Assembly (NCBI GenBank): GCA_951406725.2
Contig: OX597817.1
Coordinates: 165,168,001-165,232,000 of the forward strand
Source of the DNA: Octopus vulgaris
Lineage: Eukaryota
Direction: 5' to 3'
DNA length: 64,000 nucleotides
A model generated the notes under the pieces. That model worked only from the letters and a program-made list of their open reading frames with translations, did not search any database and had not been told where the DNA came from. This document shows, piece after piece, positions 1 through 61,626 of this stretch. A program made the position numbers and the translations under genes. Position 1 is the stretch's first letter; every line of letters starts with the position of its first letter.

Positions 1-100
1 AGGTATTAGCATTAATGGAGCTGCTTGTTGCTTGTTAATTTTCCCAGGGTATTTCCATATTAGTTACTCACTTCATCAAGGCCCCATTTTGCCACGAATA

Positions 101-307
101 CTCTTTTACTTGTTTCAGTCATTTGACTGCGGCCATGCTGGAGCACCGCCTTTAGTCGAGCAACTCGACCCCAGGACTTATTCTTTTGTAAGCCCAGTAC
201 TTATTCTATCGGTCTATTTTGCCGAACCGCTAAGTAACGGGGACATAAACACACCAGCATCGGTTGTCAAGCAATGCTAGGGGGACAAACACAGACACAC
301 AAACACA

Positions 308-357
<50 letters not shown>

Positions 358-518
358 CGGGCTTCTTTCAGTTTCCGTCTACCAAATCCACTCAGAAGGC
401 TTTGATCGGCCCGAGGCTATAGTAGAGGACACTTGCCCAAGATGCCACGCAGTGGGACTGAACCCGGAACCATGTGGTTGGTAAACAAGCTACTTACCAC
501 ACAGCCACACCTGCGCCT
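101..518 (-). mobile_element. tRNA-derived SINE, family A (internal microsatellite, CR1-like tail), full length
   Basis: Minus strand has A/B-box-like TGGCTGTGTGG...GGTTCAGTCC, a central (AT)n and the tail CCAGCATGGCCGCAGTCAAATGACTGAAACAAGTAAAAGA; 8-bp TSD ccacgaat at 92-99 and 519-526; more than 15 related copies in the window. Confidence 0.9.
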
Positions 519-1218
519 CCACGAATGCCGAAAGAACCACTCCCAAATCCACCCGTTCTACTTTATGAGTGAACACTGAGCATAGTCACAGCCCTACGCT
601 GTTGATTGGTGGTTCATGGCTTCATTGTTTGCAGCAGTCCTGCTATTGATTAGTTTCACACGTCCAATCAGCATTGTTCAGTCAGCGTGCAGCAGCTTGC
701 TTTTGTGTCATGACGTTCGTTCATACGGAGAACTGACATATAAACGTGTGCGTGTGTGCATGTATGTGTATGTGTTTGTGAGAGAAGGAGAGGGACAGAG
801 AAGGAAAGGGAGTGAGATAGAGAGAGAGAAAGAGAAAGAGAGAGATCTGTCGTCATTGCTGTTTTATTTAGCCCCTGGTCAGCTCAACTGCAATAAACCT
901 ATGATCAAATGTAAGTCATTCAAGCGGGGTTTTTGTTCAGAGCAATATTATCCTCGATACACGCCTCCTTTCCCTTTCGAAGTAATAAATATTTTATCTT
1001 CACTTTGACTCCGTATACCAACCACTGTGCTGGAACACATTACAGAAATAGCAGCCACAACACCTTCAAATTGCACACCTAAGTATCATTCTAAAGGAAA
1101 AGACACGTTGTATAGAACAGTCTTACATATGCTATGGGTGAATGAAGCCAAGATGGCTAAAAATTGAACATTTTCGATCAAGGCTAAGGTGCAGTAACAT
1201 TGTTAGATATACTTATTG

Positions 1219-1630
1219 ACGGCGAGCTGGCAGAATTGTTAGCCGGGCGAAATGCTTAGCAGTATTTCGTCTGCCGCTACGTTCTGGGTTCAAATTCCGC
1301 CGAGGTCGACTTTGCCTTTCATCCTTTCGGGGTCGATAAATTAAGTACCAGTTGCGCACTGGGGTTGATGTAATCGACTTAATCCGTTTGTCTGCCCTTG
1401 TTTGTCCCCTCTATGTTTAGCAACTTGTGGGCAATAAAGAAATAAGAATCGTTAGCACGCTAGGAGAAATGCTTAGCGGCATTTCGTCTGTGTTTACGTT
1501 TTGAGGCCAAATTCCGTCGAAGTCGTTTTTACCTTTAATCCTTTCGGAGCCGATAAATTAAGTACCAGTATAAAACTGGGGTCGATGTAATCGACTAGGC
1601 CTCTCCCTTGTGCCTTTAGTAGAAAGGATT
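1219..1630 (+). mobile_element. tRNA-derived SINE, family B, dimeric body
   Basis: Head GGCGAGCTGGCAGAA...GGTTCAAATTCC, then GTCGACTTTGCCTTTCATCCTTTCGGGGTCGATAAATTAAGTACCAG; the body occurs twice; a further degenerate copy lies at ~1665-1830. Confidence 0.85.
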
Positions 1631-2133
1631 ATTAGATATATATTAATATAATGTGACAGAGTCGTTGCACGCTGGACCAAATGCTTAGCGGCTTGTATTC
1701 GGCTTTACGTTTTCAATTTAACTGCCACCGAGGTTGACTTTGCTTTTCTTCCTTTCGGGGTCGATAAAATAAGTCTCAGTTGAGCAGGGGGTTGATGTAA
1801 TCGCCCCCACCAAATCCCGGCCGTGTACCTGTGTTCCAAACGCTTTTCCTACGTCTGCTCCAGTAGGGCTAAGCGAGGGCTAAACGGCGTCCTTTGCTGA
1901 AGTACTCTAAACGTTTCTGCAAAATCAGGAATAATTATCTTACTTAGATAATATTTATGATATTTTAAATAAGCACAGAGACAGTGTTAGTAATTATAGA
2001 CGAAAAAAAAATTGAAATATTATAGAATTCAGAATGAAACAGGTTAGTAATTATCTGATAATGAATCAAGCGTAAATCTACAGAGAAACGGATGTCTACA
2101 TAATCGTTATACGTATGTGTGAGTATGTAAATA

Positions 2134-2183
<50 letters not shown>

Positions 2184-2489
2184 GGTATACACAGGTGCTT
2201 ATAATTATCAAGTACTCATCCCGAATTTCTATATATATATAACATAGACGCGAAGGATATATAAAACGGAATTACAGAACTAAAACGAATTAAATACGTA
2301 TATATGGATCCTTCACCAGTTGTCGGCTGTCTATCTACCCTCATTTCGAACATACACATACATGCTTGTCAATATGTAATTACAAACATACGCTCACATT
2401 ATATATGCACATACAGATGTATATATGTATATTTATGTATGTTTGTAATTATATATGTATGTATATATAAATATATATATATATATATA

Positions 2490-2648
2490 CGTACAAAATG
2501 TGACCTCGTGTGTATACTTTTCCTCTGTCTTCCTTCTCTGGATATTTCTTCTCCTATGTTTCGACGAGTCCGCCGAAACGTTAAACCTCCTTCTTTCCTT
2601 CTTTCCTGAGCGTCCAATAATACATATTTGTTCCACATTAACTTTATT
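2490..2648 (+). mobile_element. Degenerate copy of the ~200-bp P1 element (minimal-HHR family), in copy 1 only
   Basis: Reverse-complement similarity to 5737-5945, including tgtttcgacgagtccgccgaaacgttaaac; flanked by (AT)n. Confidence 0.7.
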
Positions 2649-2678
2649 TATATATATATATATACATACATACATACA

Positions 2679-2733
<55 letters not shown>

Positions 2734-2838
2734 ATATGAGATAGACAGACAGACAGATAGATAGATAGACAAATAGACAGATAGATAGATAGAATGGTAG
2801 ACAGATAGCTAGATAGATAGGTAGATAGATAGATAGAT

Positions 2839-2934
<96 letters not shown>

Positions 2935-3314
2935 GTAGAAAGATGGATAAATAGAAAGGGAGAGAGAGAGAGAGAGAGAGAGATAGACTGAGTGATAGAT
3001 AAGTGGGAGAAAGAAATGTATGCATATATATCTGCACCGATATACTTATAAATCTGCATACATATATATGTATATGTACATATGCGTGTGTGTGCATACT
3101 GTCACGCATACGCATCCCCGCCACACACAAAATTATACACATACACAGCCTCCACACACACAAACACAACCTCCATACAAAAACACACATATTGATATAT
3201 TTTTTAGTTTCGATTTTTTGATAGCTCTTCGATATTTAAATACACATTGAACAATTCTATATCTCCTATATTAATATAAACAGCCATTCACATTCACACA
3301 CACACGCTTACTTA

Positions 3315-3349
<35 letters not shown>

Positions 3350-3567
3350 TAAGAGTCACACATTCATACGCACACATTTATATCAGAATGAATGGATATC
3401 CGCCAGTTTCGTTTTCCTGAATTTGGCGCGCAAATATCTACACGTCTCATTAACGTTTTTTACCCCAATATTCCCAAGGAGAATCAACGTGATAAAAACG
3501 CACGAAACTCTCGGACTTTGAGTCACTCAGCTGCTTCTGCTAAATATTAATAAAAATATACTCATAT

Positions 3568-3980
3568 AAGGCGGCGAGCTGGCAGAATTGTTAGCACGCC
3601 GGACGAAATGATTAGCAGTATTTCGTCGGCCGCTACGTTCTGGGTTTAAAATTCCGCCGAGGTCGACTTTGCCTTTCATCCTTTCAGGGTCGATTAAATA
3701 AGTACCAGTTACGCACTGGGGACGTTATAATCGACTTAATCCGTGTGTCTGTCCTTGTTTGTCCCCTCTGTGTTTACCCCTTGTCGGTAGTAAAGAAATA
3801 GGTATTTCGTCTGCCGTTACGTTCTGAGTTCAAATTCCGCCGAGGTCGACTTTGCTTTTCATCCTTTCGGGGTCGATTAAAGAAGTACCAGTTACACACT
3901 GGGGTCGATGTAATCGACTTAATCGCCTTGTCTGTCCTTGTTTGTCCCCTCTATTTTAAGCCCCTTGTGGGCAATAAAGA
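3568..3980 (+). mobile_element. SINE family B, dimeric, with TSD
   Basis: ~19-bp TSD aataaaaatatac(t/c)atat-like at 3549-3567 and 3981-3999 with one mismatch; two tandem bodies. Duplicate near 17565-17980. Confidence 0.9.
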
Positions 3981-4058
3981 AATAAAAATATACTTATATT
4001 TTGAGTTCTATTTTTCCTGATTGCACCAAATTAACCCCCCCTCTCTCTCTCTTTCTCT

Positions 4059-4123
<65 letters not shown>

Positions 4124-4464
4124 TATGTGTATGTGTGTGTGTTTATATATATACATATATATATGTATTTGGACGGAATGTATCTTTATAACGTAAATTT
4201 CAAAGCAGATACGTATATATTACCTATAATCCACAACATAATATTCTGTCAAAATGTTCAGATATACATGTCGTTCGCCAGGAGACACCGAATAAGACGA
4301 ATATTGAGTGCAACATTAAATTTTTTTATGCTGTATATCGAGTCACACCACAGGGTCGTTATGAAGCAAACGGAGATTAAAAAAAACAGTAAAGAAAACC
4401 CAAACCAAACTCAGCATACGCGTCTAACTTTTCTTACCATATGTGCGTATGTGTACATACATAT

Positions 4465-4557
<93 letters not shown>

Positions 4558-4941
4558 CACACACACGTATATATATAATACAAAAATGGGACAAGAACGC
4601 AAAACTTCCAGACAGTTAGGTGAAACAAAAAAAAGGAAAACAAAATATCCAGATGATACAAGGAAAACAAAGACGGATCATTCGAAGTTTTCTATCCTCA
4701 GTTGAGTTCCGGATTATCGTTGCAATTTCGGCTAGTAAATCCCCCAAAATGAAGAACAAGCACAAAAAAGACAACAACACGAGGATGTGGTACATGTAAA
4801 GTATTAACAGACGCTCGGGAAAGGAAAGAAAGATGGGTTAACGTTTTGAGCAACGCTCTTCTTCAGAAACAGAGGTAAGTCTAATAGAAAGGAAGACGGA
4901 GGAAGAAAATCGCCAAGATTCACATCTGGTAACATTTTGAA

Positions 4942-5037
<96 letters not shown>

Positions 5038-5369
5038 GCATGGCTCAGTGGTTAGAGCGTCGAGCTTACGATCGTGAGGTTGTGAGCTCGAATCCCGGAC
5101 CGGGCTGCGTGTTGTGTTCTTGAGCAAAGCACTTTATTTCACGTTGCTCCAGTTCACTCAGCTGTAGAAATGAGTTGCGATGTCACAGGTCCCAAGCTGT
5201 ATCGGCCCCTTTGCCTTTCCCTTGGATAACACTGGTGGCATGGAGAGGGGAGGCCGGTATGCATGGGCGACTGCTGGTCTTCCATAAACAACCTTGCCCG
5301 GACTTGTGACTAGGAGGGTAACTTTCTAGGTGCAATCCCATGGTCAGTCATGACCGAAGGGGGTCTTTA
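5038..5369 (+). mobile_element. tRNA-derived SINE, family C (CORE-like body)
   Basis: Head TGGCTCAGTGGTTAGAGCG...CTCGAATCCC; CORE-like CTTGAGCAAAGCACTTTATTTCACGTTGCTCCAGTTCACTCAGCTGTAGAAATGAG; flanked by tatagta repeats. Other copies at ~18924-19256, 25123-25462, 32595-32895, 36472-36760. Confidence 0.88.
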
Positions 5370-5656
5370 TAGTAAATACCCAAAAAGAAGAACAAACACA
5401 AAAAAAAAAAACAACGACGCGAGGACGTGGTACATGTAAAGTATTAGCAGACGCCCAGGGAAGGAAAGAAAGATAGTTTAACGTTTCGAGCAACGCTCCA
5501 CTTCAGAAATAGAGGAAAGTTCAATAGAAAGGAAGACGAAGTAAAAAAAATCGCCAGCGATTCACATGTGGTTAGATTTTGAATATATATACATATATAG
5601 TAAATACCCCAAAAGAAGAAGACCAAACATAAAAAAAAACAACGACGCGAGGACGT

Positions 5657-5738
<82 letters not shown>

Positions 5739-5840
5739 GTTAATCCAAACATGAAAGCACAAAAAAAAACACAACAACGCGAGGTCGTGGAACAAATATA
5801 GAGTATTATTGGATGCTCAGGAAAGAAGGAAAGAAAGAGG

Positions 5841-5875
5841 GTTTAACGTTTCGAGCGGAGCTCTTCGTCGGAAAC
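5841..5875 (-). ncRNA. Minimal type I hammerhead ribozyme motif (P1 family)
   Basis: Minus strand GUUU-CCGACGA-A-GAGC-UCC-GCUC-GAAA-CG-UU-AAAC: helix I GUUU/AAAC, helix II GAGC/GCUC, palindromic ACGU helix III, U4C core variant. Identical at 19701-19735. Confidence 0.65.
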
Positions 5876-6010
5876 ATAGGAGAAGGAAAGATCCAGAGAA
5901 GGGAAGACAGAGGAAAAAAAATCGCCAACGGTACACACGCGGTCATATATGTATATAACAATATATGGCACATCGGATTAAGTATACGAATAAGGCATCA
6001 TTTCAAATAT

Positions 6011-6365
6011 GGATGGAAGCAGTCCGTCGGTTCCGACGATATTCCGGTTGATATCAACAACAGCCTGCTCGTGATTAACGTGTAAGTGGCTGAGCACTCC
6101 ACAGACACGTGTACGTAGTTCTCGGGGATATTCAGCATGACAGCAGAGAGTGACAAAGTATTTGAAAATACAGGTACAACAGAAACAGGAAGAAAGAGTG
6201 AAAAATTTGTGGTGAAAGAATACAGCAGGGATCACCACCATCCTTCAGCCTCAAGCTTTTTTATGTTTTCGCTCAGTAAACACTCACAACGCCCAGTCTG
6301 GGAATCGAAACCGCGATCCTACGACCGCGAGTCCGCTGCCATAACCACTCCATTGCGCCTCCACT
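6011..6365 (-). mobile_element. SINE family D insertion, absent from the duplicated copy
   Basis: 11-bp TSD atttcaaatat at 6000-6010 and 6366-6376; single empty site at 19860-19870; tRNA-like head GGCGCAATGG...GGTTTCGATTCC on the minus strand. Confidence 0.92.
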
Positions 6366-7137
6366 ATTTCAAATATATGAATAGTTGGACCGTGCATTCT
6401 GAAACCCGGAAAAACACTGACTGTATCTCAAGAAAAATACTGTGAGATAAGGCGGTGGGAAACAGCAAAGTAATTTGGCCGTTGCTCGGAGTTGTCCTTA
6501 TCTGTTCTCTTTATATCATCTTGTATAATATATTGTTAATAAACTACCAAAACAAACTTAGGTGTCATAAGTTCGAGGCCCATGGCCTTACGTATTCATG
6601 CTCAAACATATAATCTTTTCAATTTTATGGAGTTTTCTGTTACTCCATTTTATAAATACGTCTTGTGTCAGCGTGTATGTGTATGCGTGATTTTGTATTC
6701 ATATGCATGTATAGTGTATTGGTGAGAGTGAATGATGATGAATGAGTGTGTAAATGAATATGGGTTTGTTGTGCTCATGAATATATGTCCTTTTTTTACG
6801 AACGCGGTTAAATTTAAATGTGTGCGCAAGCGTGCGTGCGTGTGTGTGTTTGGGTATGTGTGTGAGTGTATGTATGTGTGGTTAATGACGTATGTTTGAA
6901 TCTGGGTATGAATATATATGAGTTTGGACGAATGCGTGAATGCGTGATTATGTAGGGAAAAAGTCTGTGTTTGTTTCTGTGCGAGTTTACGTAAATGTGT
7001 ACGTAAACGTTAGTGTATTAATATGTTACTGATGTGTGTCTGAACCTGCGTATGAATATATATGAATATGGATGTATGCGTGAATATGCGAACGTATAAG
7101 TATGTATGTGTAAGCGCATCATTATTAGTATATGTGT

Positions 7138-7735
7138 AAGGCGGCAAGCTGGCAGAAACGTTAGTACGCCGGGCGAAATGCTTGTGCGGTATTTCGTCCG
7201 CAATTACGTTCTGAGTTCAAATTCCGCCGAGGTCGAGTTTGCCTTTGATCCTTTCGGAGTCGATAAATTAAGTACCTGTTACGCACTGGAGTCGGTATGA
7301 TCGGCTTAATCCGTTTGTCTGTCCTTGTTTGTCCCCTCTGTGTTTAGCCCCTTGTGGGTAAGTATTTCGTCTGCTTTTACGTTCTGAGTTCAAATTCCGC
7401 CGAGGTTGACTTTGCGTTTCATCCTTTCACGGTCGATAAATTAAGTACCAGTTTCGCACTGGGATTGATCTAATCGACAGCCCCTCCCCCAAAATGTTGG
7501 ACCTTGTACCTAAAGTAGAAAAGATTATAAGTAAATGTTTTCAGACGGCGAGCTGGCAGAATCGTTACCATGCTGGGCAAAATGTCTTTATGTTGTGAGT
7601 TCAAATGCTGTTGGGATCGACTTTGCCTTTCATCCTTTCGGAGTAGATAAATTAAGCACCAGTTGAGTACTGGGGTCTATATAATCGACTATCCCCCTCC
7701 CAAATTTCAGGCCTTGTGCCTATAGTAAAACCGAT
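7138..7735 (+). mobile_element. Two adjacent SINE family B copies (7138-7525 dimeric; 7545-7735 diverged)
   Basis: Same head and GCCTTTCATCCTTTCGG core; duplicate at ~20635-21245. Confidence 0.82.
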
Positions 7736-7930
7736 TATTGGTATATATGTTTGAGTCTGCGTATGAAGATATGTAGGTCTGTATATGTGTGGGCACGTGT
7801 AAATGTGTGCGTATGTGTAAATGTGTGCGTGTGTGCGTATGTGTACGTGAATGCTAGTGTGTGTTTATGCGTGCTCATGATTATATATATGCGTGTGTAT
7901 GTATGTAGGTATGTATAAATATGTGTGTTA

Positions 7931-8303
7931 TTCTTTTATTTGTTTCAGTCATTTGACTGCGACCATGCTGGAGCAGAGCCTTTACTCGAACAAATCGACC
8001 CCAGGACTTATTCTTCGTAAGCCTAGTACATATTCTATATGACTCTTTTTGCCGAAGCGCTAAGTTAAATGGACATAAACACACCGACATCGGTTGTCAA
8101 GCAATGATAGGGGGGGACAGACCTAGACACACTAACATATCTATATATACTTTTCAGTTTCTGTCTACCAAATCCACTCACAAGGCTTTGGTCGTCTCGA
8201 GGCTATAGTAGAAGACACTTGCCAAGGTGCCACGCAGTGGGACTGAACCCGGAAACATGTGGTTGGTAAGCAAGCTACGTACCACACAGCCGCTCCTGCG
8301 CCT
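7931..8303 (-). mobile_element. SINE family A
   Basis: Matches 101-518 with a shortened centre; duplicate at ~21438-21810. Confidence 0.85.
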
Positions 8304-8447
8304 ATGTCCATAAGAATGCATTTATATTTTGGGATAAGAATGATTGTCTATGTCTGTGTATCTGTGTGTGTGTATGTATGTATGTATGTATGTATGTATG
8401 TATGTATGTATGTATGTATGTATGTATGTATGTATGTATGTATGTAT

Positions 8448-8891
8448 AGATTGAAGGATAGAAGGATTCCAAAGCAGATGCTCTATGGAGAACTTGTGAA
8501 TGGAAGGAGACTCCGGCAGAAACCAAGGCTGCGATTTAAGGACTGTGTTAAGTCCTCGTTAAAGGCCTGTGATATGCAGGACACTGACTGGGAGAACAAT
8601 GCCTGTCATCGCCACAGATGGAGGAGAAAGTTAAGGAGGGGATGTTGACACTTTTGAGAGAGCACGTATCCAAGCATGAAGAACTTAAGCGAGCTGCAAA
8701 GCGCACGGCTCGTATAGTGAATGGGGAAAGCTTGGTCTGCAATGTTTGCAGTCGTGTATGCTTGTCAAGAGCAGGGCTCATTAGCCACCAACGGAGCCGC
8801 AAATGCAAAATATAAGTTAGTCCTAGAGCGCACAATGTTCCTGAAGGTCGGCAATGGTCTTTCTCGGTCACGAGTGGACGGCCATCATCAT
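8448..8891 (+). pseudogene. 5'-truncated RTE-clade LINE 3' end (ORF C-terminus, C2H2-type finger, (CAT)n tail)
   Basis: RIPKQMLYGELVNGRRLRQKPRLRFKDCVKSSLK...WENNACHRHRWR is the typical RTE C-terminal motif; after a frameshift comes LVCNVCSRVCLSRAGLISHQRS; ends in gccatcatcat, within (TATG)n. Confidence 0.88.
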
Positions 8892-9148
8892 GTATGTATG
8901 TATGTATGTATGTATGTATGTATGTATGTATGTATGTATGTATGCGTGTATGTATGTATGTATGCGTGTATGTATGTATCTATGTATGAATGTGTGTATG
9001 TATGCATGTATGTATGTTTGTATGTATGTATGTATGTATGTACGTATGTATGTATGTATGTATGTATGTAATATGTATGTGTATGTATGTATGCATGTAT
9101 GTATGTATGTATGTATGTATGTATGTACATGCATGCACACGTACACAC

Positions 9149-14479: not shown

Positions 14480-22570
<8,091 letters not shown>

Positions 22571-23473
22571 GTATGTATGTATGTATGTATGTATGTATGT
22601 ATGTATGTATGTATGTATGTATGTATGTATGTATGTATGTATGTATGTATGTATGTATGTATGTATGTATGTATGTATGTATGTATGTATGTGTGTATGT
22701 ATGTATGTATGTATGTATGTATGTATGTATGTATGTATGTATGTATGTATGTATGTATGTATGTATGTATGTATGTATGCATGCATGTATGTATGTATGT
22801 ATGTATGTATGTATGTATGTACGTACGTATGTATGTATGTATGTATGTATGTATGTATGTATGTATGTACGTATGTACGTATGTATGTATGTATGTATGT
22901 ACGTACGTATGTATGTATGTATGTACGTATGTATGCATGTATGTATGTATGTATGTATGTACGTATGTATGTATGTATGTATGTATGTATGTATGTATGT
23001 ATGTATGTATGTATGTATGTATGTATGTATGTATGTATGTATGTATGTATGTATGTATGTATATGTGTGTGTATGTATGTATGTATGTATGTATGTATGT
23101 ATGTATGTATGTATGTATGTATGTACGTACGTACGTACGTATGTATGTATGTATGTATGTATGTATGTATGTATGTATGTATGTATGTATGTATGTATGT
23201 ATGTATGTATGTATGTATGTACGTACGTATGTATGTATGTATGTACGTATGTATGTATGTATGTATGTATGTATGTATGTATGTATGTATGTATGTATGT
23301 ATGTATGTATGTATGTATGTATGTATGTATGTATGTATGTATGTATGTATGTATGTATGTATGTATGTATGTATATGTGTGTGTATGTATGTATGTATGT
23401 ATGTATGTATGTATGTATGTATGTACGTACGTACGTACGTATGTATGTATGTATGTATGTATGTATGTATGTA

Positions 23474-60795: not shown

Positions 60796-60833
<38 letters not shown>

Positions 60834-60838
<5 letters not shown>

Positions 60839-61589
60839 AATCAAGGAACGGCCATAATAGGCCATTCACCCACTAGAAATAACAGCCAAAAGCTTTAACC
60901 GCAAAATAACATTAATACCGTAAACCAGGAGAAAATTGAAAAACTTTTACCCTGTAATTTCTTAGACGATGCACCGTTTCATCTACCGTTTAATGGTAAA
61001 CTAACCTGATTAAATTAAATCAAGCCAATCCACCATAGGCCCTTAGACTCATCAGTAAGAAATAGCCAAATCGGAACAGATATTTTTCACGAGGCATTCC
61101 TCTTGCTACCTCGGCAATATCTGACCTAAAATTTTCAAATCGTCGCACTCGCGCCAAATTTATCGGCAGCAAATAAATATAAGCCACCGATTCCTTTACG
61201 GAACTAACCAGAAAATTCATAATTAATCAATATAGGGTGGCAAAAAAATTTTGTAGAATTCTTTTGCCACCAGCGGCCTAGTAGGAAAAAATTAAATAGT
61301 CATAAACCATTTTTACGTTCAACATCACAATCAAGGAACGGCCATAATAGGCCATTCACCCACTAGAAATAACAGCCAAAAGCTTTAACCGCAAAATAAC
61401 ATTAATACCGTAAACCAGGAGAAAATTGAAAAACTTTTACCCTGTAATTTCTTAGACGATGCACCGTTTCATCTACCGTTTAATGGTAAACTAACCTGAT
61501 TAAATTAAATCAAGCCAATCCACCATAGGCCCTATGGTGGCAAAAGAATTCTACAAAATTTTTTTGCCACCCTATATTGATTAATTATG

Positions 61590-61590
<1 letters not shown>
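60834..61590 (-). mobile_element. 490-bp-unit partial tandem retroelement with HHR and terminal inversion (retrozyme or Penelope-pLTR-like)
   Basis: 60834-61043 equals 61324-61533 (210-bp direct repeat, offset 490); 61535-61590 is the reverse complement of 61217-61272; (AT)n on both sides; no ORF of note. Confidence 0.82.
60957..61063 (-). ncRNA. Type I hammerhead ribozyme with extended helix II
   Basis: AUUUCUUA-CUGAUGA-GUCUA[...]UAGAU-GAAA-CGGUGCAUCG-UC-UAAGAAAU: perfect core, 8-bp helix I, GUC cleavage triplet (cut between 60965 and 60964), 19-bp inner hairpin with 6 G-U pairs. Confidence 0.9.

Positions 61591-61626
<36 letters not shown>

What the first reader, a model, noticed from the sequence alone, without database searches (positions are those of the whole stretch)
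60937..61089. Canonical hammerhead ribozyme with a long G-U-rich helix II arm and a candidate pseudoknot contact
Seen on the minus strand: AUUUCUUA CUGAUGA GUCUA AGGGCCU AUGGUGGAUUGGCUUGAUU UAAUUU AAUCAGGUUAGUUUACCAU UAAACGG UAGAU GAAA CGGUGCAUCG UC UAAGAAAU. Every conserved core base is present (CUGAUGA, GAAA, GUC), helix I is 8 perfect pairs, and the ~58-nt insert in helix II folds into a 19-bp stem with six G-U pairs that would be A-C mismatches on the other strand, pointing to a minus-strand RNA. Helix I extends further (UGAAAAA/UUUUUCA, UAUCUGU/ACAGGGUA) around the internal loop UCCGAUUUGGCU, which is partly complementary to both strands of the helix II internal loop (GGCC and AAACGG). 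Established: loop I-loop II contacts accelerate natural HHRs, and palindromic helix III with a tiny loop suggests dimeric cleavage in tandem-repeat HHRs. Inference: an active, architecturally unusual HHR in a cephalopod-like genome.
Basis: partly seen in the sequence, partly recalled or inferred. Interest (0 to 1): 0.9.

Follow-up and report, generated by a model that had tools for sequence, protein, structure and literature searches.

The report
Penelope-mobilised hammerhead retrozyme family
The hammerhead ribozyme motif is real, but it sits in a young, non-coding 490-base repeat with hundreds of copies in this genome, whose insertion scars match those of Penelope-like retrotransposons, so it is likely a parasitic self-cutting RNA copied around by their enzyme rather than a host gene.

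Summary
The motif is exactly as described (core, 8-bp helix I, 19-bp arm with six G-U). It is one copy of a 490-nt non-coding unit: 415 exact copies of a 26-mer, in dispersed tandem arrays inside (TA)n. This is a non-LTR retrozyme, a known kind. Three sister families (two are 66-71% identical to it) keep the fold by compensatory change. The new part is the insertion scars. 3' ends fall at two fixed sites about 105 nt apart. Of 46 two-armed (inverted) insertions, 39 have one end of each type, none has two alike, and 7 were unclassifiable. Informative flanks show about 15-bp target duplications. An intact RT-GIY-YIG Penelope-like element in the same genome shows the same two-end pattern and TA target, but no sequence homology to the unit. 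All units and both arms of an insertion share one haplotype, pointing to a monomer (circle) bottleneck. 5' ends cluster at the cleavage site in the first set (13 of 64 arms) but only weakly on replication (4 of 52, p=0.09). Cleavage and expression are untested.

The parts
60957..61063 (-). Type I hammerhead: helix I (61063-61056 / 60964-60957), core CUGAUGA 61055-61049, helix II base 61048-61044 / 60985-60981 (G-U at 10.1-11.1), GAAA 60980-60977, helix III 60976-60967, GUC 60967-60965; predicted cut 60965/60964
60993..61036 (-). 19-bp helix II extension with six G-U pairs; a long extension is also present, with different sequence, in sister families B, E and F
61064..61069 (-). Helix I bulge strand UUGGCU, 5' side of the candidate pseudoknot
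   Evidence: (GG invariant in 4 of 4 families)
61036..61041 (-). Helix II internal-loop strand GGCCUA, 3' side of the candidate pseudoknot
   Evidence: (CC invariant in 4 of 4 families)
60965..61454 (-). One complete 490-nt retrozyme unit (u1-u490, numbered from the cut site); non-coding, 36.5% GC, highly self-paired
60834..60964 (-). Terminal partial unit u1-u131, ending at fixed 3' site S1 (60834) on (TA)n
61455..61533 (-). 5'-truncated partial unit u412-u490: a half hammerhead without CUGAUGA, so this copy alone has only one complete ribozyme
61535..61590 (+). Short inverted second arm u183-u238, ending at fixed 3' site S2 on (TA)n
61219..61323 (-). 'Tail' between the two start sites (u132-u236, about 105 nt), containing a hairpin conserved in families B and E (61271-61236)
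60800..60833 (.). (TA)n target tract, S1 side
61591..61620 (.). (TA)n target tract, S2 side

Best explanation
The motif is a type I hammerhead inside one copy of a young, non-coding 490-nt tandem repeat (a non-LTR retrozyme) that is likely copied in trans by the reverse transcriptase-endonuclease of a Penelope-like element. Shown: dispersed 98-100% identical arrays in (TA)n; two fixed 3' ends, S1 and S2; head-to-head arms with one end of each type; about 15-bp target duplications; one haplotype per insertion; a fold conserved across four families. Inferred steps: (1) arrays are transcribed on the hammerhead strand as multimers; (2) the hammerhead cuts after GUC slowly or incompletely, helped by the GG/CC pseudoknot and possibly by dimer formation through helix III, giving monomers that are likely ligated into circles; (3) a probably dimeric Penelope-type enzyme nicks both strands of an AT tract about 15 bp apart, and one nick primes at S1 and the other at S2 on the same template or sister templates; (4) each cDNA runs round the circle or along a multimer to a variable length, and the two are joined 5'-to-5' at microhomologies. 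The window copy is such an insertion and, with only one complete ribozyme, is probably a dead end.
For: Copy number: 415 exact 26-mer matches against 0 for the reversed control; 151 matches from 40 of 720 candidates scored. Ends: of 70 loci, 46 are two-armed; 39 are S1+S2, 0 are alike, 7 have one unclassifiable end; all 24 single-armed loci end at S1 (11) or S2 (13). The pre-specified replication set alone gives 17 of 21, 0 alike. Sister families B (8 of 10) and E (6 of 7 distinct loci) show homologous ends, read by eye. Both flanks are TA-rich in 51 of 70 loci and one flank in 15 more. 15-bp duplications at L044, L049, L184, L188 and L202 and at E loci L166, L169 and L178. An intact 781-aa RT + GIY-YIG element inserts in (TA)n with two ends 40 nt apart, one of each in L115 and L091. 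Two internal RT start sites explain the PLE tail in vitro (PMC11167929). Haplotypes: 754 of 764 marker-by-locus cases are uniform across units; arms agree in 437 of 441; 15 loci share a private substitution on both arms. 5' ends at u1-16 in 13 of 64 arms against 3.3% expected. Whole-unit circular fold -142 against -111+/-6 for shuffles and -89 for the opposite strand.
Against: No autonomous element with a homologous pseudo-LTR was found among 40 GIY-YIG loci, some overlapping, so the partner is unidentified. The tail is about 105 nt, not the usual 30-40. No target duplication could be read for the autonomous element. The 5'-end cluster replicated only weakly: 4 of 52, p=0.09. It is not evident in B or E: about 3-4 of about 51 arms, by eye. 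About five of the first 13 can be explained by an AGGGT-type microhomology at the join. RT passed the cut site 136 times in set 1. Six loci carry a private variant in only some units, and L052 and L054 mix deleted and undeleted units, which fits multimer templates rather than one circle. The active fold is 1.5-8.8 kcal/mol above the ensemble in the four families. Hammerhead cleavage was dispensable for insertion of the anole PLE in vitro (PMC11167929). Eight of nine Xenopus retrozyme dimers did not cleave in vitro (10.64898/2026.07.22.740005).
Confidence: 0.78

Rival explanations
1. Same Penelope-type mobilisation, but from uncleaved linear multimeric transcripts; the hammerhead is slow or incidental and no circle is involved.
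For: Most RT passages cross the cut site (136 crossings against 13 stops). Mixed units occur in some arrays. Replication of the 5'-end cluster is weak. HHR mutants did not affect insertion of the anole PLE in vitro (PMC11167929).
Against: Units and arms are uniform in 754 of 764 marker cases, and new private variants are fixed in every unit of an array (for example L054 7 of 7, L184 4 of 4), which is hard to obtain without a monomer bottleneck. The hammerhead helices are kept by compensatory change across four families. Arms end exactly at u1-2 at L032, L040, L011 and L210.
Confidence: 0.25
2. The units are pseudo-LTR fragments of an autonomous Penelope-like element not sampled here, not an independent non-autonomous family.
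For: Vertebrate retrozymes are related to PLE pseudo-LTRs (10.64898/2026.07.22.740005). Only the best 150 of 6136 GIY-YIG candidates were scored.
Against: No family A arm in the 70 loci runs out of the unit into other element sequence; ends abut (TA)n, host DNA or the other arm. Arms repeat the unit up to six times. tblastn of the PLE protein found only unrelated neighbouring fragments.
Confidence: 0.1
3. A DNA satellite or DNA-level rolling-circle (Helitron-like) repeat carrying a dead hammerhead.
For: Tandem arrays; no RNA evidence obtained.
Against: Variable 5' truncation with fixed 3' ends, inverted arms, target duplications, a strongly strand-specific RNA fold and covariation.
Confidence: 0.04
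4. A host-adopted ribozyme with a role at this locus.
For: None found.
Against: The copy is about 100% identical to dispersed copies, so it is a recent insertion in repeat-rich DNA. No long non-repetitive ORF lies nearby.
Confidence: 0.02

Closest known systems
Metazoan non-LTR retrozymes (Cervera & de la Pena 2020, PMC7229834; Li et al. 2026, 10.64898/2026.07.22.740005)
   Same: Non-coding tandem units with one type I hammerhead each, low GC, highly self-paired, target duplications longer than 4 bp, coexisting with PLEs.
   Different: The unit is 490 nt (above the 170-400 nt of Cervera 2020, within the 51-972 of Li 2026). It has a long helix II arm, G-U at 10.1-11.1 and a candidate pseudoknot. 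In the parts read, those papers argue the PLE link from shared features, co-occurrence and pLTR homology; here it rests on insertion scars, and no pLTR homology was found.
Penelope-like elements: tail and inverted 5'-truncated copies (Craig et al. 2021, PMC8557442; Frangieh et al. 2024, PMC11167929)
   Same: Two fixed 3' ends, tail at one end only, inverted 5'-truncated arm, partial tandems, AT-rich or (TA)n targets, hammerhead upstream of the RT start sites.
   Different: No ORF; tail about 105 nt instead of 30-40; arms are multimers; strict one-of-each end rule in 39 of 39 classifiable inverted insertions.
Non-autonomous Chlamys elements such as MRC1 (Craig et al. 2021, passage)
   Same: Non-autonomous PLE dependants with multicopy head-to-tail insertions.
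   Different: Those resemble their autonomous partners at the 3' end; no such partner was found here. The abstract says N-terminal-EN PLEs lack canonical hammerheads.
Pseudoknotted hammerheads (Perreault et al. 2011, PMC3088659)
   Same: [quoted passage not shown]
   Different: Here the contact joins the helix I bulge to an internal loop of helix II that continues into a long arm.

Membership tests
Type I hammerhead ribozyme | Core CUGANGA, GAAA and NUH around a three-way junction, helix I open | tested here: met
   core unchanged in 199 of 202 copies (7.7 substitutions expected at background)
Type I hammerhead ribozyme | Helices I and III supported by covariation | tested here: met
   hand-anchored pairs: helix I A-U/G-C, C-G/U-A, U-A/C-G; helix III G-C/U-A/A-U/C-G across A, B, E, F
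Type I hammerhead ribozyme | G10.1-C11.1 closing pair of helix II | tested here: not met
   G-U in A and E, G-C in B, A-A in F; a natural U-U at this pair is reported (PMC3088659)
Type I hammerhead ribozyme | Rfam RF00163 gathering score of 34 bits | tested here: not met
   22 bits, E 0.013, with the long insert placed in loop II
Type I hammerhead ribozyme | Stem I-stem II tertiary contact | tested here: inconclusive
   GG/CC register pairs 5-6 of 6 positions in 4 of 4 families with three compensatory positions, but swapped partners pair about as well
Type I hammerhead ribozyme | Self-cleavage after H17 | not testable with these tools
   indirect only: 5' ends at u1-16 in 13 of 64 and 4 of 52 arms
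Non-LTR retrozyme | Tandem units each with a type I hammerhead | tested here: met
Non-LTR retrozyme | Non-coding, GC below 50%, highly self-paired | tested here: met
   six frames; GC 36.5%, 69% paired, about 5.6 SD below 25 shuffles
Non-LTR retrozyme | Target duplication longer than 4 bp | tested here: met
   about 15 bp at 5 informative A loci and 3 E loci; unreadable in pure (TA)n
Non-LTR retrozyme | Expressed as linear and circular monomers | not testable with these tools
   no holder on record as RNA; contigs only
Penelope-like element (autonomous) | RT plus GIY-YIG ORF | tested here: not met
Penelope-like element (insertion signature) | Two fixed 3' ends (tail), inverted 5'-truncated arm, microsatellite target | tested here: met
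   tail about 105 nt rather than 30-40
Penelope-like element (derivation) | Sequence homology to the pseudo-LTR of an autonomous PLE | tested here: inconclusive
   none in 40 loci; only 150 of 6136 candidates scored and 30 plus 10 stretches fetched

The most novel reading that the evidence does not exclude
A structure-defined retrozyme superfamily with no sequence tie to any Penelope element is copied by an asymmetric RT dimer that always starts one cDNA at S1 and the other at S2 of one hammerhead-made circular RNA, from two nicks about 15 bp apart. This would show directly that animal retrozymes move through PLE enzymes on circular templates, and that the PLE 'tail' reflects an obligatory one-site-per-subunit rule.
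Probability: 0.4. Interest if true: 0.75.

Novelty: new variant of a known kind. Interest (0 to 1): 0.5.

Why it matters
The ribozyme itself is an ordinary class member with a longer arm. The value lies in the insertion record. What mobilises animal retrozymes, and whether circles are the template, was left open in the papers read. This young family shows PLE-type scars, a strict one-of-each end rule, about 15-bp duplications and single-haplotype arrays, and an intact candidate enzyme lies in the same genome. It gives a 490-nt RNA, a protein and exact predicted start sites for an in vitro test of PLE insertion.

Tried and rejected
Rfam at gathering: nothing in the window. Expression: no RNA holder listed; the contigs laid cannot show strand, ends or level, so nothing is concluded. 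Parent element: L081's match to the unit proved to be a separate short insertion, not linked to its GIY-YIG fragment; blastn and nhmmer against 40 PLE loci gave no other hit; downstream regions of 11 further GIY-YIG loci and three other fragments showed no likeness by eye. A Pfam accession recalled from memory was not in the library. Classical non-overlapping twin priming: rejected, because arm 5' ends rarely meet the other arm's start site and the arms overlap. The MAFFT alignment misplaced family F and the pseudoknot, so pairs were anchored by hand and no covariance model was built. The core count was off by one base and was redone. The bacterial promoter scan was uninformative. Earlier findings of this scan: none returned. 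Literature searches listed no paper on this family or on tail-type ends of retrozymes, judged from titles and abstract starts. No supplements were read and Repbase and Dfam are not searchable here, so the family may already be catalogued.

Full report
Observation. The minus strand carries the motif as written. CUGAUGA is at 61055-61049, GAAA at 60980-60977 and GUC at 60967-60965; the 19-bp arm at 61036-60993 has six G-U pairs; helix I is 8 of 8. Rfam aligns RF00163 at 22 bits, E 0.013, below gathering. The helix II closing pair is G-U, so 'canonical' is slightly too strong.

Context. Within the window the motif lies in an element at 60834-61590 between (TA)n tracts. It has a minus-strand arm (u412-490, u1-490, u1-131 of a 490-nt unit numbered from the cut site) and a 56-nt inverted arm (u183-238). 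The genome (G000, 2.8 Gb, unnamed; organism not identified) gave 151 matches from 40 of 720 candidates scored, mostly 98-100% identical, and 415 exact copies of a 26-mer against 0 for the control. The unit is non-coding and 36.5% GC. Folded as a circle it gives -142 kcal/mol against -111+/-6 for 25 shuffles and -89 for the opposite strand. Runs under four organism labels hold the stretch. Contigs from four laid runs of three organism labels cover all 29 bins at 85% likeness or more, with head-to-tail joints. This meets the testable features of a non-LTR retrozyme (PMC7229834: passages and sections 13-14 read; 10.64898/2026.07.22.740005: parts 1-3 of 5, abstract to discussion).

Sister families. 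Chance neighbours led to three relatives: B (487 nt, 71% to A), E (481-483 nt, 66%) and F (full unit not recovered). Hand-anchored pairs show compensatory change in helices I and III. Helix III is self-complementary through its loop in all four (UGCA, UGCA, UGCA, AAUU). A GG in the helix I bulge and a CC in the helix II internal loop are invariant, and the six-position register pairs 5, 6, 5 and 5 positions, with U-A/C-G, U-A/A-U and C-G/U-A swaps. However, swapped partners pair about as well, so the pseudoknot is plausible, not shown. The active fold is 4.3, 1.5, 7.8 and 8.8 kcal/mol above the ensemble in A, B, E and F, pseudoknot not counted, which fits slow or assisted cleavage. Helix III has 3-4 further pairs beyond A15.1-U16.1, so dimers are possible but not required (inference; compare PMC7229834 and PMC4209133, parts 1-2 of 4 read). 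Such pseudoknots are common (PMC3088659, passages), and an unrelated hammerhead family here also has a roughly 60-nt helix II insert (5 of the 30 loci fetched; three folded).

Insertion scars. I mapped 39 loci, wrote down two tests and fetched 31 new loci from the first 100 of the 415 places listed. 3' ends fall at S1 (about u131) or S2 (u233-236). Of 70 loci, 24 are single-armed (11 S1, 13 S2) and 46 are two-armed: 39 S1+S2, none alike, and 7 with one unclassifiable end (contig end, masked stretch, degraded or atypical). The replication set alone gives 17 of 21. By eye, B gives 8 of 10 and E 6 of 7; their queries selected for S2 on one arm. Both flanks are TA-rich in 51 of 70 loci and one flank in 15. 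Informative flanks give 15-bp duplications at five A loci and three E loci, give or take the AT microhomology. This is the PLE tail pattern (PMC8557442, passages), which reflects two internal RT start sites (PMC11167929, parts 1-2 of 4). The genome holds a young element with an intact 781-aa RT + GIY-YIG frame. It has a cysteine linker between the domains like that described for Neptune and Nematis; no tree was made. It inserts in (TA)n with two ends 40 nt apart, one of each in L115 and L091. It has no homology to the unit, so it is a candidate helper, not a shown one.

Template. Family markers are uniform across the units of a locus in 754 of 764 cases and between arms in 437 of 441 (all four exceptions at one site, u65); 15 loci share a private substitution on both arms. 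Both arms therefore come from one template lineage, and a monomer bottleneck is implied. Against a single circle every time: six loci carry a private variant in only some units, and L052 and L054 mix units with and without a 6-nt deletion, so multimers are also copied. 5' ends lie at u1-16 in 13 of 64 arms (3.3% expected, p=1e-7; scan test p=0.0002), as expected if RT runs off a cleaved end. The pre-specified replication gave only 4 of 52 (p=0.09), B and E show no clear excess, about five first-set cases sit at a microhomology, and RT crossed the site 136 times. One degenerate arm (L039) was set by hand to u229. This is suggestive of partial cleavage in vivo, no more.

Verdict. The hammerhead is real and probably functional, but it is a member of a known kind: a retrozyme copy, here probably a dead end, with one complete ribozyme. 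What is new is a variant architecture conserved in four families and an unusually clean record of PLE-type insertion. Searches listed nothing on this family; supplements, Repbase and Dfam were not seen. Cleavage, circles, expression and the helper enzyme remain inferred. Interest 0.5; new variant of a known kind.

Noticed in passing
L109:431-5672 (G000:C16:20834930-20840171): Apparently active Penelope-like family: 781-aa RT + GIY-YIG frame preceded by a separate open frame of 359 codons (stop to stop) with no convincing Pfam match, (TA)n target, 40-nt tail, and by eye a U3-A8-type hammerhead variant in its pseudo-LTR; many 781-aa frames.
   Followed up: partly
L121, L122, L125, L134, L140: An unrelated hammerhead family with a roughly 60-nt, branched helix II insert; three copies pass the Rfam gathering score.
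   Followed up: partly
L126-L133, L135-L139, L141-L148: An abundant compact type I hammerhead family with inverted copies, several ending on (TA)n; probably another PLE-related or retrozyme family.
   Followed up: no
L150-L165 (family F): Sister family whose hammerhead has an A-A mismatch at 10.1-11.1 in the copies shown; activity doubtful or a natural variant.
   Followed up: partly
window 5871, 19731, 18785, 4866, 55058 (minus strand): Minimal-hammerhead-like motifs of the PLE type, some with a decayed GAAA, in a dispersed repeat.
   Followed up: no
window 1-9127 and 14480-22629: Recent segmental duplication, 96-99% identical, offset about 14 kb.
   Followed up: no
L039:1075-1378; L043:1802-2479: Arms with many small deletions or TA-like substitutions beside clean arms; error-prone copying or assembly error.
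   Followed up: no
L001:1908-2574: A family A array and a family B insertion lie back to back in one (TA)n tract; nested use of the same target.
   Followed up: partly
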